From a virus (Duplodnaviria; Heunggongvirae; Uroviricota; Caudoviricetes), in the IMG/VR virus record IMGVR_UViG_2703718809_000006: DNA of 59,084 nt. One strand, 5' to 3'. Every line of letters starts with the position of its first letter. Position 1 is the stretch's first letter. A program made the position numbers and the translations under genes. Shown here piece by piece: positions 52,163 to 59,084 of the stretch. The notes below the pieces were generated by a model that was not told the origin of the DNA, did not search any database, and worked only from the letters and a program-made list of their open reading frames with translations.

Positions 52163-53509
52163 CCCTGTTACGCCTTATCCAATGTGCCGCCCCCTACGCT
52201 CCTCATAGTGGGGATATAAGGCACAGTTTTCCTCCCGGCTATTTTTGCTTAAAATAGTGACATGAAACAACAGGTGTCATTCAAATTCCGGTTAAAACCA
52301 GATGGTCAACAGGAGTGTCAAATGAGGCGCTTTGCCGGAGCTTGTCGTTTCGTTTTCAACCGTGCTCTGGCGCTTCAGAATGAGAATCATGAGGCCGGTA
52401 AAAAATACATCCCTTACACGAAAATGGCTTCCTGGTTGGTTGAGTGGAAAAAAGACACTGAAACCGAATGGCTTATAGATTCTCCCTCACAGCCATTGCA
52501 ACAGTCACTGAAAGACCTTGAGCGGGCTTACAAAAACTTCTTCCAGAATCGGGCTGCTTTTCCCCGATTCAAAAAGCGGGGACAGAATGATGCATTTCGC
52601 TACCCGCAGGGCGTTAAGCTCGATCAGGAAAACAGCCGTATTTTTCTGCCGAAACTGGGCTGGATGCGCTACCGGAATAGCCGTCAGGTCACGGGAGTTG
52701 TGAAAAATGTCACTGTCAGCCAGTCCTGCGGTAAGTGGTACATCAGTATTCAGACAGAAAGTGAAATATCCACTCCGGTTCACCCTTCAGCATCAATGAT
52801 CGGGCTGGATGCTGGCGTGGCTAAACTCGCCACGCTGTCAGATGGCACAGTCTTTGAGCCTGTAAACAGTTTTCAGAAAAACCAGAAGAAGCTGGCGAGA
52901 CTTCAGCGACAGTTAAGCCGCAAGGTCAAATTCAGCAACAACTGGCAGAAGCAGAAACGCAAAATACAGCGACTGCATTTTCGTATCGCAAATATCCGCA
53001 GAGACTACCTTCATAAAGTCACAACGATCATCAGCAAAAACCACGCAATGATTGTCATTGAGGATTTGAAGGTTAAATACATGTCAAAGTCAGCGGCGGG
53101 AACGATAAGTCATCCGGGTCGCAATGTCCGGGCAAAATCAGGTTTAAACCGTTCGATACTGGATCAGGGCTGGTATGAAATGCGCCGCCAGCTTGAGTAC
53201 AAGCAGCTCTGGCGTGGCGGTCAGGTGCTTGCTGTTCCGCCAGCGTACACAAGCCAGCGTTGCGCGTGCTGTGGTCATACAGCGAAAGAAAATCGCCTGT
53301 CACAAAGTAAATTCAGATGCCAGGTATGTGGATATACAGCGAACGCCGATGTAAACGGCGCTCGTAACATTTTAGCGGCGGGGCACGCCGTACTTGCCTG
53401 TGGAGGGATGGTGCAGTCAGGCCGCCCGTTGAAGCAGGAACCCACCGAAATGATTCAGGCGACAGCCTGAACGTAGCAGGAATCCACGCCCCGAAGGGCG
53501 TGGAGGATG
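52163..53509 (+). mobile_element. IS200/IS605-family tnpB-only insertion element (IS1341-like)
   Basis: About 1.35 kb exactly filling the gap between the ddrA-like stop and the ddrB-like start; TnpB ORF plus 3' hairpin CCACGCCC-cgaa-GGGCGTGG. Confidence 0.7.
52262..53470 (+). CDS. tnpB: TnpB (OrfB) RNA-guided nuclease/transposase accessory protein
   Basis: 402 aa; RuvC-like 'GLDAGV' and 'MIVIEDLKV'; C-terminal zinc finger 'CACCGH...CQVCGY'; '[10 protein letters not shown]'. Confidence 0.85.
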
Positions 53510-57225: not shown

Positions 57226-57489
57226 TTACCTATTCAACCGACTTTTGGAACCTTCAATAATAAGCCTGCTATTGGCGCTGAAAATAAGAACCATGCAGCT
57301 CTGAAGGCTTTCATTCATGTCCTTATATTCCGCGAGATACATGCCAATAAAGCCAGCAAGTACGGCGGAAATACATTCGGCCAGCAATTTCTTGCATGAA
57401 GACTCGTAACGGTTTTCACATAGCCCACTCAAATACGAATACACCCCACCAAGAAGGGATAACATCACGATATGTACATAAAATGTCAT
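57226..57489 (-). CDS. Small membrane protein (holin-like, LydC-like)
   Basis: 87 aa with TM-like segments, upstream of lydA. Confidence 0.4.
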   Translation of the reverse strand: MTFYVHIVMLSLLGGVYSYLSGLCENRYESSCKKLLAECISAVLAGFIGMYLAEYKDMNESLQSCMVLIFSANSRLIIEGSKSRLNR

Positions 57490-57616
57490 TTTTTACCTAT
57501 ACAACAGTAAGTTGAACAACATTTGAGAACGGTATGCACTTTGTGATTTCCACACACACTGGTTTTGTTAATTAAAACCTGTAGCTTGCAATAAATAACG
57601 ATAGTGGGCAGAAAAT

Positions 57617-57793
57617 ATGCTAATAGGCTATGTACGCATATAGACAAATGAACAAAACACAGCTATGCAGTGAAAAGCACTTGAAAGCGCAGGATGTGAG
57701 CTAATTTTTGCGAATAAGGCGAGCAGCAAAAAAGCTGGGCACCCTGGGTTAAAAAAGGTTCTGCGTATGCTTTCCAGAGGTGATACCCTAGTC
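57617..57793 (+). pseudogene. Disrupted 5' fragment of a second serine invertase gene (Pin/Gin/Hin-like)
   Basis: Translates as MLIGYVRI*TNEQNTAMQ*KALESAGCELIF...GDTLV with two in-frame stops, ending at the palindrome CCCTAGTC-tcg-GACTAGGG. Confidence 0.6.
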
Positions 57794-57924
57794 TCGGACT
57801 AGGGACAACATTTCGAGAACAGTTTTCATTAGCGGTCAGCAGGCGCTAGATACATCGAATTGATGTGCCGCGCGATAAATGTACCTATTCTATCAAGATA
57901 AATTACACCGACGCGGCATTAGAA

Positions 57925-58497
57925 TTACAGCTCAGATTGAGTTTGGCGCTTCTCTACAGGATGATAACGATAAATCGTCGATACACCGATATCGTAAATA
58001 ATTGCCAACTGTTTCCTGCTGTAGCCATTTTCGATCAACCTCGCTATTTGCTCATGTTGTTCTTTTGTCAACTTCGGGCGACGTCCGCCAATGCGTCCCT
58101 GTTCGCGTGCAGCTGCCAGTCCGGCCAGTGTTCTCTCAACAATTAATTCACGTTCCATTTCTGCTAAAGCACCCATGACATGAAAAAAGAAACGCCCCAT
58201 GGGTGTTGATGTGTCAATACTGTCTGTCAGACTACGGAAATTAACACCTTTTTCCCGCAACTCCTCTATAAGCGTGATAAGGTGTTTCATACTTCTGCCA
58301 AGCCTATCCAGCTTCCAGACAACCAGCGTATCTCCTTCTGATAACGTTCTGAGCAGCTTTTTCAAGCCTGGTCTGGCTGACTTTGTTCCGCTTATTTTAT
58401 CTTCAAAAATCAGTTCACATCCTGCGCAGTTCAGTGCATTTCTTTGTAAATCTGTGTTTTGGTCATTTGTTGACACACGAATGTAGCCAATTTGCAT
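57925..58497 (-). CDS. cin: Cin DNA invertase (serine recombinase)
   Basis: MQIGYIRVSTNDQNTDLQRNAL...; resolvase catalytic domain plus C-terminal HTH; track ORF has 3 extra N-terminal codons. Confidence 0.85.
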   Translation of the reverse strand: MQIGYIRVSTNDQNTDLQRNALNCAGCELIFEDKISGTKSARPGLKKLLRTLSEGDTLVVWKLDRLGRSMKHLITLIEELREKGVNFRSLTDSIDTSTPMGRFFFHVMGALAEMERELIVERTLAGLAAAREQGRIGGRRPKLTKEQHEQIARLIENGYSRKQLAIIYDIGVSTIYRYHPVEKRQTQSEL

Positions 58498-58552
58498 GAA
58501 AAACAACCTCTTTGTTTAGTTAAAAATACATCGTTGGTATAGGTAGGGATTA

Positions 58553-58575
58553 AGACTAAAACGTTGGTTTGGGGG
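58553..58575. other. cix-like inversion crossover site
   Basis: ...CTAAACGTTGGTTTGGG... resembles the gix/hix/cix core (AAAACC..GGTTT) and lies at the 5' edge of the fibre segment. Confidence 0.5.
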
Positions 58576-59072
58576 AAGGCTCTGCACTGCCTGTTGGTGT
58601 GCCCGTTCCGTGGCCCTCAGCCACACCGCCAACGGGGTGGCTGAAATGTAACGGAGCAGCATTTTCTTCTGAAAAGTACCCAAATCTGGCAAAGGTTTAC
58701 CCAACGTTAAAATTACCTGATTTACGCGGTGAGTTTATCCGTGGTTGGGATGATTCGAGAGGGATTGATACAGGGCGTTCATTGCTAAGTGGTCAGACTG
58801 CAACATTTATTCGTACAGCTTTGCAGGATTATTACGGTTACGATCTGAATACTAATGTCAAAGTAGGTATCGCTTATGCTACTGCTGATTCTGTTATAAC
58901 TGTTGGAAACCCTGCTAATCCTAAAGCAGGAAATAATAGCGATTATGTTCCAGCATCATCAGATAACTCCATAACAGGCACTCAAAGGACGGCAGAGGAT
59001 AATTTTACCGGGGCATGGATATCAATGCGCCCCCGCAACGTTGCTTTTAATTACATTGTAAGGGCCACATAA
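58569..59072 (+). CDS. Tail-fibre variable C-terminal segment (Sv/Sv'-like, tail-collar fibre domain) inside the invertible region
   Basis: 'PWPSATPPTGWLKCNGAAFSSEKYPNLAKVYP...LPDLRGEFIRGWDD' is the conserved tail-fibre C-terminal module; no canonical start (promoterless segment). Confidence 0.6.
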   Translation: MGEGSALPVGVPVPWPSATPPTGWLKCNGAAFSSEKYPNLAKVYPTLKLPDLRGEFIRGWDDSRGIDTGRSLLSGQTATFIRTALQDYYGYDLNTNVKVGIAYATADSVITVGNPANPKAGNNSDYVPASSDNSITGTQRTAEDNFTGAWISMRPRNVAFNYIVRAT

Positions 59073-59084
59073 AAACGTTGGTTT
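59066..59084. other. Second cix-like site immediately after the fibre segment stop
   Basis: ACATAAAAACGTTGGTTT shares the 12-bp AAACGTTGGTTT core with the site at about 58558; truncated by the window edge. Confidence 0.45.

What the first reader, a model, noticed from the sequence alone, without database searches (positions are those of the whole stretch)
58540..59084. cix-like sites flank a single 167-codon tail-fibre segment, suggesting a multi-site (Min/shufflon-like) inversion system
The same 12-bp core AAACGTTGGTTT occurs just before the fibre-segment ORF (about 58558) and just after its stop (59073-59084, window end). In classical P1 two cix sites bound one 4.2-kb C segment; sites spaced about 0.5 kb apart around one variable fibre C-terminus are more like the multiple-inversion Min system of p15B (established knowledge). 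That would allow combinatorial host-range switching.
Basis: partly seen in the sequence, partly recalled or inferred. Interest (0 to 1): 0.6.

Follow-up and report, generated by a model that had tools for sequence, protein, structure and literature searches.

The report
Min-type tail-fibre multi-inversion array, edge

Summary
AAACGTTGGTTT (as a 13-mer, AAAACGTTGGTTT) occurs exactly twice, at 58558-58570 and 59072-59084, with none expected by chance. The copies bracket a 169-codon Collar-domain tail-fibre cassette. Both copies are on the + strand, so they are direct repeats and cannot invert that 0.5-kb segment by themselves. The adjacent recombinase is not Cin. It is a 190-aa serine invertase (72% identical to Cin, 78% to e14 Pin) reading away from the cassettes, next to a dead cin 5' remnant. 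This is the arrangement reported for plasmid p15B. Eighteen related loci (P1-like plasmids, phages and draft contigs) carry the same invertase followed by 2-12 such 26-bp sites. The (+) sites lie on the invertase side and the (-) sites on the tail-fibre-gene side, converging on one tail-fibre-assembly gene. The constant fibre gene enters the array in frame through a hix/cix-like site. Nine recurrent cassette families, including the window's, occur in both orientations and at different ranks among these loci, as expected of inversion isomers. The window therefore holds the invertase-proximal edge of a Min-type multiple-inversion array. Its inverted partner sites lie beyond 59084.

The parts
58552..58577 (+). 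Site 1: complete 26-bp crossover site AAGACTAAAACG-TT-GGTTTGGGGGAA (central TT at 58564-58565). It is the invertase-proximal outer site of the array.
   Evidence: The core matches P1 cixL (CAATCCTAAACC-TT-GGTTTAAGAGAA) at 11 of 12 positions. The same left half, AAGACTAAAACG, occupies this position in 18 related loci. That left half is non-coding, so its conservation is not explained by coding constraint.
59066..59084 (+). Site 2: interior crossover site CACATAAAAACG-TT-GGTTT, truncated by the window end (19 of 26 nt; central TT at 59078-59079). Same orientation as site 1.
   Evidence: In relatives the full site reads CACATAAAAACGTTGGTTT[G/A]GGGGAA and always follows this cassette type. Its left half contains the cassette's last codons and the TAA stop.
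58563..59072 (+). Cassette c1: a promoterless 3' coding cassette for a tail-fibre tip (169 codons plus TAA), silent in this position. It has a conserved N-terminal Collar domain, a variable middle and a conserved C-terminal ...RPRNVAFNYIVRAT.
   Evidence: The exact 157-aa core protein is on record in 175 blocks of the collection, at ranks 1-4 after the invertase. A near-identical copy is fused in frame to the constant tail-fibre gene in L003.
57925..58497 (-). min-type serine DNA invertase gene (190 aa), transcribed away from the cassettes.
   Evidence: Resolvase PF00239 E=2e-51 and HTH_7 PF02796 E=3e-15. It is 72% identical to P1 Cin and 78% to e14 PinE. The exact sequence is in UniRef as Q05517_ECOLX 'DNA-invertase' and on at least 1000 contigs.
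58408..58479 (-). Candidate recombinational (Fis-dependent) enhancer inside the 5' end of the invertase gene.
   Evidence: It aligns at about 80% to the 72-bp enhancer annotated in P1 cin (L005 679-750). Its position matches the P1 GenBank note for p15B nt 6463-6533. Function was not tested.
57528..57793 (+). psi-cin: dead remnant of a P1-type cin promoter and 5' coding region, with in-frame stops.
   Evidence: It is 89.5% identical to P1 31570-31836 with one gap. The translation is MLIGYVRI*TNEQNTAMQ*KALES.... The P1 record notes the same 89%, 1-gap match to p15B nt 7147-7408.

Best explanation
The 545 bases are the invertase-proximal edge of a Min-type multiple DNA inversion array of a P1-like phage-plasmid. 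A small serine invertase (57925-58497, minus strand) acts on 26-bp sites. Each site has two imperfect 12-bp half-sites around a TT crossover dinucleotide. Every cassette begins in the right half of a site and ends with its own stop codon in the left half of the next site. Sites on the invertase side point one way. Sites on the tail-fibre-gene side, beyond the window, point the other way. The outermost of those is a site inside the constant tail-fibre gene S, with left half TTCTTGATTACC. Inversion between any oppositely oriented pair flips everything between them and places a different cassette in frame behind the constant gene, so one of n receptor-binding tips is made at a time. Direct repeats such as the two in the window are not resolved, because invertases of this family act only on inverted sites within an enhancer-dependent synapse; this lets the array persist. 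Shown here: the sites, their orientation, the cassette, the invertase, the psi-cin remnant, and the array architecture with permuted cassettes in relatives. Inferred: that this molecule continues in the same way beyond 59084, that the invertase is active, and that the enhancer works.
For: Two exact 13-mers with none expected by chance. The core matches P1 cixL at 11 of 12 positions. The invertase is of the Cin/Pin family. The psi-cin remnant and reversed invertase have the identities and spacing that the P1 GenBank record reports for p15B. The 18 related loci examined have 2-12 sites, always (+) on the invertase side and (-) on the S side, converging on a centre of about 1.57 kb holding c2, tfa and c3. 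The same pattern appears in many of the 71 stretches recovered from IMG/VR viral contigs. S enters the array in frame through TTCTTGATTACC-TT-GGTTTAGGGGAA (...VLDYLGLGEG...). Cassette families c1-c10 each occur on both strands and at different ranks in different plasmids. The same cassette c1 is found behind three unrelated left contexts (invertase leader, S constant, other cassette ends), and homology among those contexts is limited to the half-site. A search over a model with these site orientations gives (n-1)!x2 isomers and n alternative fusions. For n=6 this is 240 and 6, which are the numbers I recall as published for p15B. PacBio-proven inversion at near-identical 26-bp sites is reported for E. 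coli EC958 prophage Phi2 (PMC4134206). The Min shufflon of p15B is described in PMC6109161.
Against: The window contains no oppositely oriented site and no constant tail-fibre gene, so inversion cannot be demonstrated for this molecule. No read-level data were available. The comparisons are between different plasmids, so they show that rearrangements happened in the lineage, not that this copy switches. The 5' 64 nt of the window's cassette is a mosaic shared with other cassette families, which shows that homologous exchange also reshuffles these repeats. The original p15B papers are not in the held library, so the six-site and 240-isomer figures rest on my memory.
Confidence: 0.87

Rival explanations
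1. The array in this particular element is a remnant. The molecule may have lost the S-side sites, or may hold only direct repeats, so nothing inverts and the cassette is a dead spare.
For: No inverted partner lies within the 59 kb. Some P1-like plasmids have degraded tail-fibre regions (PMC6906374). Relative L002 has only two sites.
Against: The invertase is intact and identical to a protein found on at least 1000 contigs. The cassette ORF is intact. All 18 relatives examined have at least one oppositely oriented site. The window stops exactly at the site, which looks like an assembly break and not a biological end.
Confidence: 0.07
2. The permuted arrangements among relatives arise mainly from RecA-dependent homologous recombination between the roughly 40 + 220-bp conserved ends of the cassettes. 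On this view the short cix-like core is only conserved coding sequence (..NVGLGEG..).
For: All cassettes share a long conserved 5' part and a conserved 3' end. Seven of the 10 mismatches between the window's c1 and L003's c1 lie in the first 64 nt, and that tract is identical to the one heading c3/c6 cassettes elsewhere.
Against: The half-site AAAACG is conserved at the invertase-proximal site, where nothing is encoded. At that site and at the S junction the left-flank homology ends within about 6 nt of the TT. A dedicated invertase with an enhancer-like sequence is always adjacent. Site-specific inversion at such sites has experimental precedent.
Confidence: 0.05
3. It is a classical two-site P1 Cin C-segment, with the second 12-mer a chance or quasi site.
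For: The backbone is P1-like and the core resembles cix.
Against: The two sites are direct and 514 bp apart. The enzyme is not Cin and cin is a pseudogene. There is no Sv'/U' pair. Relatives have up to 12 sites.
Confidence: 0.01

Closest known systems
Min multiple DNA inversion system of plasmid p15B (E. coli 15T-; Sandmeier, Iida, Arber 1990-1992)
   Same: P1-like backbone. A psi-cin remnant sits next to a reversed Pin-like invertase gene, with the same identities and spacing to P1 that the P1 GenBank notes give for p15B. Several crossover sites are spaced about 0.5 kb apart. Short alternative 3' cassettes of one tail-fibre gene each carry their own stop. A model built from the observed site orientations gives 240 isomers and 6 variants for six sites.
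   Different: Nothing essential in the part visible here. Relatives carry more sites than the six I recall for p15B, up to 12. The p15B sequence itself (X62121) could not be aligned with these tools.
Cin/cix C-segment of phage P1
   Same: Same enzyme family (72% identity), a near-identical 12-bp core, an enhancer inside the 5' end of the invertase gene, and control of the tail-fibre gene S C-terminus.
   Different: P1 has two sites bounding a 4.2-kb segment with two Sv/U modules, and cin reads towards cixL. Here cin is dead, the invertase reads away from the sites, cassettes are about 0.5 kb, and the sites form a direct series.
Pin/pix P-segment of the e14 element (E. coli K-12)
   Same: The invertase is closest to PinE (78%) and is transcribed away from the invertible DNA, as pinE is. 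It uses stf/tfa-type fibre modules.
   Different: e14 has a single two-site segment with two tfa genes.
Prophage Phi2 tail-fibre switch of E. coli EC958 (PMC4134206)
   Same: The 26-bp sites are TCCTCAATTACCTT-GGTTTAGGAGAA and GAGAGATAAACGTT-GGTTTGGGGGAA. These are almost the same as the S-junction and interior sites here, and inversion was seen in PacBio reads.
   Different: It is a two-site, chromosomal prophage system.
R64 shufflon (Rci/sfx, pilV) and the Rin shufflon of Bifidobacterium prophages
   Same: Multiple overlapping invertible segments select one of several C-termini of an adhesin or receptor-binding protein.
   Different: R64 uses a tyrosine recombinase (Rci) and asymmetric sfx sites. 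Here the enzyme is a serine invertase with Resolvase and HTH_7 domains. The resemblance is functional only.

Membership tests
Hin/Gin/Cin/Pin/Min (Din) serine DNA invertase systems | Invertase of about 190 aa with an N-terminal resolvase catalytic domain (Ser near residue 9-10) and a C-terminal HTH | tested here: met
   PF00239 E=2e-51 and PF02796 E=3e-15. The N-terminus MQIGYIRVSTNDQ carries the conserved serine. Identity is 72% to Cin and 78% to PinE.
Hin/Gin/Cin/Pin/Min (Din) serine DNA invertase systems | 26-bp crossover sites: two imperfect inverted 12-bp half-sites around a 2-bp core | tested here: met
   Site 1 is AAGACTAAAACG-TT-GGTTTGGGGGAA, against cixL CAATCCTAAACC-TT-GGTTTAAGAGAA. 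In 132 full sites from relatives, positions 10-11 and 13-19 are invariant. Site 2 is only partly inside the window.
Hin/Gin/Cin/Pin/Min (Din) serine DNA invertase systems | Recombining sites in inverted orientation on the same molecule | tested here: not met
   Within the window both sites are on the + strand and no (-) site exists. The feature is met in all 18 related loci, so the failure reflects where the window ends.
Hin/Gin/Cin/Pin/Min (Din) serine DNA invertase systems | Fis-dependent recombinational enhancer in cis, within the 5' part of the invertase gene | tested here: inconclusive
   Window 58408-58479 aligns at about 80% to the enhancer annotated in P1 cin. Fis binding and function cannot be tested here.
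Min system of p15B | psi-cin remnant adjacent to a min gene in the opposite orientation | tested here: met
   psi-cin lies at 57528-57793 (+) and the invertase at 57925-58497 (-). Identities (89%, one gap) and spacing agree with the p15B notes in the P1 record.
Min system of p15B | More than two crossover sites forming overlapping invertible segments | tested here: inconclusive
   Two sites are present in the window, both in one orientation. At least one more is needed and must lie beyond 59084. Relatives have 2-12.
Min system of p15B | Alternative 3' cassettes fused in frame to one constant tail-fibre 5' part | tested here: inconclusive
   The constant gene is not in the window. In relatives S reads ...VLDYLGLGEG... 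through the junction site, and a near-identical copy of the window's cassette is fused to S in L003.
Min system of p15B | Sequence identity to the p15B min gene and region (X62121) | not testable with these tools
   X62121 is not in the searchable collections. The only indirect evidence is an exact protein match to the old UniProt entry Q05517_ECOLX, together with PMC6906374 reporting a similarly placed reversed invertase 98.5% identical to Min.
R64-type shufflon | Rci tyrosine recombinase acting on sfx sites | tested here: not met
   The adjacent recombinase is a serine invertase, and no tyrosine recombinase is next to the array.

The most novel reading that the evidence does not exclude
Natural P1-like phage-plasmids carry Min arrays larger and more open than the six-site p15B prototype. 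Arrays reach 12 sites and cassettes, drawn from at least 10 recurrent Collar-domain cassette families plus rare ones. A single tail-fibre-assembly gene is tied to one cassette and is antisense to the fibre operon in about half of the isomers. Homologous exchange in the conserved 5' tract creates hybrid cassettes. Recent surveys of P1-like plasmids that I could read treat this region only as 'highly variable', so a systematic description of repertoire and host-range consequences may still be missing.
Probability: 0.35. Interest if true: 0.35.

Novelty: already known. Interest (0 to 1): 0.2.

Why it matters
The array decides which receptor-binding tip a P1-like phage-plasmid displays. It therefore decides which enterobacterial strains the element can infect, transduce or lysogenise, and this includes elements that carry resistance genes. 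Recognising the array matters in practice for three reasons. It breaks short-read assemblies at the sites. Annotation pipelines label it as a row of separate 'phage tail protein' genes or pseudogenes. Plasmid comparisons read it as hypervariability. As biology it is a correct rediscovery of the Min system, not a new mechanism.

Tried and rejected
Reading the primary p15B papers (PMC53420, PMC206102), the P1 genome paper (PMC523184) and Johnson's review (PMC4384473) failed; none is held. The p15B figures of six sites and 240 isomers therefore come from memory, supported only by the model.

A first site scan with AAAC[CG]NNGGT[TA]T missed the S-junction site (TTACC instead of AAACC). That wrongly suggested S stops at a site without any fusion. 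Translating S and locating the GLGEGSALPVG motif fixed this.

Protein-level clustering of cassettes failed because several assemblies contain frameshifts. It was replaced by nucleotide clustering.

The promoter and terminator scan of 57400-59084 gave no more hits than shuffles and no clear invertase promoter.

Site-like matches elsewhere in the window were judged chance matches inside coding sequence. These were 50868 (-), 13433 (-) and 5250 (-), plus the 2-mismatch hits, whose count of 12 was reached in 2 of 100 shuffles.

The classical two-site Cin model and R64-type shufflon membership were considered and rejected.

Full report
**1. The observation**

The 12-mer AAACGTTGGTTT is present exactly at 58559-58570 and 59073-59084, both on the + strand. 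The shared stretch is really 13 nt (AAAACGTTGGTTT, spacing 514 nt). None of 100 dinucleotide-preserving shuffles of the window contained it. Between the copies lies ORF 58569..59072 (167 aa from a TTG). Read from the crossover codon at 58563 it is 169 codons and has a Phage Tail Collar domain (PF07484, E=6e-15). Its TAA abuts the second core.

The copies are direct repeats. The second site is cut by the window end, so 19 of its 26 nt are present.

**2. What the sites are**

- P1's annotated sites read CAATCCTAAACC-TT-GGTTTAAGAGAA (cixL) and TTCTCTTAAACC-AA-GGTATTGGATAA (cixR).
- Site 1 here is AAGACTAAAACG-TT-GGTTTGGGGGAA (58552-58577, central TT at 58564-58565). It matches the cixL core at 11 of 12 positions, in the same orientation relative to the neighbouring recombinase gene.
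- Site 2 is CACATAAAAACG-TT-GGTTT| (59066-59084).
- The cassette's reading frame runs through the right half-site (..AAC GTT GGT TTG GGG GAA..).
- The left half of site 2 contains the last codons and the stop of the cassette, in a different frame.

**3. The neighbourhood**

The window is a P1-like phage-plasmid. It has the darA, hdf, lydB, lydA and lydC homologues, and its best matches are Punavirus phages and E. coli plasmids of about 95 kb.

The recombinase next to site 1 (57925-58497, minus strand) has these properties:

- It is a 190-aa serine invertase with Resolvase and HTH_7 domains.
- It is only 72% identical to P1 Cin and 78% identical to e14 PinE.
- It is transcribed away from the cassettes, whereas cin in P1 reads towards cixL.

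Upstream, at 57528-57793 on the + strand, lies a dead copy of the cin promoter and 5' end. It is 89.5% identical to P1 with one gap, and has in-frame stops.

The P1 GenBank record notes this same 89%, one-gap match to p15B nt 7147-7408. It also notes an 83% match of the cin enhancer to p15B nt 6463-6533. In the window the enhancer-like stretch (58408-58479, about 80% to the P1 enhancer) sits at the corresponding distance.

The exact invertase protein is in UniRef as Q05517_ECOLX and is seen on at least 1000 contigs. Venturini et al. found a similarly reversed invertase, 98.5% identical to Min of p15B, in a P1-like plasmid (PMC6906374). From memory, psi-cin next to min is exactly what Sandmeier et al. 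(NAR 1991) described for p15B. I could not read that paper.

**4. What lies beyond the window, judged from relatives**

I fetched 18 related loci that carry the same invertase. Ten of them encode the identical 157-aa cassette core.

*Site counts and layout*

- Scanning for the site gave 2-12 sites per locus.
- The (+) sites always lie on the invertase side and the (-) sites on the tail-fibre-gene side.
- The two groups converge on a centre of about 1.57 kb that holds cassette c2, a single tail-fibre-assembly gene (Caudo_TAP) and cassette c3.
- An exact-pattern scan of IMG/VR recovered 71 stretches with the site. Many show the same + + + - - - pattern with 440-520-bp spacing.

*The junction with the constant gene*

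My first scan missed the site that matters most. Its left half is TTACC, not AAACG, so it did not fit the pattern. The constant tail-fibre gene S enters the array in frame through TTCTTGATTACC-TT-GGTTTAGGGGAA (..VLDYLGLGEGSALPVG..). This left half is close to the hix/cix consensus as I recall it.

*Site composition*

- Interior sites have left halves made of the preceding cassette's end plus its stop (GGCATAA, AGCATGA or CACATAA, followed by AAACG).
- In 132 full sites, positions 10-11 and 13-19 are invariant.

**5. Evidence that the arrays actually invert**

- Nucleotide clustering gave 23 cassette families. Each of c1-c10 occurs on both strands and at different ranks in different plasmids.
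- The window's cassette c1 is first after the invertase in the window and in seven relatives (L003, L004, L006, L007, L012, L014, L015).
- In others c1 is second, third or fourth.
- In L003 a near-identical copy of c1 is fused to S on the opposite strand.
- The centre is found in both orientations, about 8 times each.
- Aligning c1 copies in their different contexts shows three unrelated left flanks: the invertase leader, the S constant part, and other cassette ends. These flanks share only the half-site, so the junctions fall within about 6 nt of the TT.
- Inversion at nearly identical 26-bp sites was seen directly in PacBio reads of E. coli EC958 prophage Phi2 (PMC4134206).
- The Min shufflon of p15B is summarised in PMC6109161.

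**6. Mechanism**

With all (+) sites on one side and all (-) sites on the other, every permitted inversion spans the centre. It moves cassettes from one side to the other and keeps the orientation rule intact.

A breadth-first search over this model gives (n-1)!x2 arrangements and exactly n different cassettes that can abut S. For n=6 this is 240 and 6, which are the numbers I remember for p15B. Because each cassette ends with its own stop, switching at the protein level is one-of-n and not combinatorial.

Direct repeats such as the two in the window are not substrates. Enhancer-dependent serine invertases recombine only inverted sites in a defined synapse (established knowledge for Hin, Gin and Cin). 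That is why long direct series are stable. The window therefore shows only the silent storage side of the system.

**7. Complications and rivals**

- All cassettes share about 75 conserved N-terminal residues and a conserved C-terminal RPRNxAFNYIVRA, so each interior site sits within a repeat of about 260 bp.
- Seven of the 10 mismatches between the window's c1 and L003's c1 fall in the first 64 nt after the crossover. That tract is identical to the one heading c3/c6 cassettes elsewhere. Homologous exchange therefore also reshuffles these repeats.
- I still rate homologous recombination as a minor rival for the inversions themselves. The half-site is conserved where nothing is encoded, and a dedicated invertase is always adjacent.
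- The other rival is that this particular molecule has lost its partner sites. This cannot be excluded, because the window stops at site 2.

**8. The window end**

The window ends at the last base that is invariant among all sites; the next base is G or A in relatives. Draft contigs L016 and L019 end exactly at the central dinucleotide of a site. Several IMG/VR contigs end within 30 nt of one.

The context before site 2 is the cassette-specific 3' end. A graph branch at that point would therefore need either two copies of c1 with different successors or a mixed population of isomers. This is suggestive only, because I do not know how the window was cut.

**9. Comparison and verdict**

It works like the Min system of p15B, and by every feature I could test it belongs to that system: a Pin-like invertase with multiple cix-like sites in a P1-like plasmid. 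It is not the two-site Cin system of P1. It is a shufflon only in the functional sense, because it uses a serine recombinase, not a tyrosine one.

The finding is already known biology. The only mildly new aspect is that natural arrays are larger (up to 12 sites) than the prototype and that recent surveys label the region merely 'highly variable'.

Noticed in passing
window 57528-57793 (+): Dead remnant of a P1-type cin gene (promoter region and first ~60 codons, with two in-frame stops). It includes a copy of the cin enhancer region and lies back to back with the functional Min/Pin-type invertase gene.
   Followed up: yes
window 52163-53509; ORF 52262..53470 (+): A ~1.35-kb IS200/IS605-family insertion that carries only a tnpB-like gene (402 aa; OrfB_IS605, Cas12f1-like TNB and HTH_OrfB_IS605 domains). 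It sits between the 995-aa ddrB-ParB gene and the 121-aa gene. Relatives L003 and L004 have just a 12-nt gap there, and phage L002 has an annotated IS609 at the same place.
   Followed up: partly
window 59084 (end); L016 and L019 ends; IMG/VR loci L025, L031, L043, L075, L076: The window stops at the last base invariant among all crossover sites. Independent draft and viral contigs also end at or within 30 nt of such sites, which suggests these arrays routinely break assemblies and may reflect mixed isomer populations.
   Followed up: partly
relatives, e.g. L008 10679-11290, L011 10943-11554: Each array has only one tail-fibre-assembly (Caudo_TAP) gene, always directly after cassette c3. It flips with every inversion, so in about half of the arrangements it is antisense to the tail-fibre operon. 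Whether the other Collar-domain cassettes need it is unexplained.
   Followed up: partly
window 58566-58630: The first ~64 nt of the window's cassette differ at 7 positions from other c1 copies. They are identical to the 5' tract that heads other cassette families (c3, c6) elsewhere, a sign of patchy homologous exchange or gene conversion next to the crossover site.
   Followed up: partly
window 58529-58544: A site-like sequence, ACATCGTTGGTATAGG, lies about 20 nt upstream of site 1 in the invertase leader and is conserved in L003. It could be a quasi-site or a regulatory element.
   Followed up: no
L003 10767-13691, L006 12724-15105 and L009 8834-11215 (S genes of relatives): The constant part of the tail-fibre gene consists of long tandem repeats (YTAQDA..KGIVQLSS..TPKAVKAAYDLA units) whose copy number differs between plasmids (S of 793 vs 974 aa).
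   Followed up: no
window 50868 (-); L003 2304 (-): A relaxed match to the site core (AACTGGAAAACGAAGGTATGCAAGGG) lies inside the 995-aa ddrB-ParB gene and is conserved with the gene in relatives. It is probably a chance resemblance in coding sequence.
   Followed up: no
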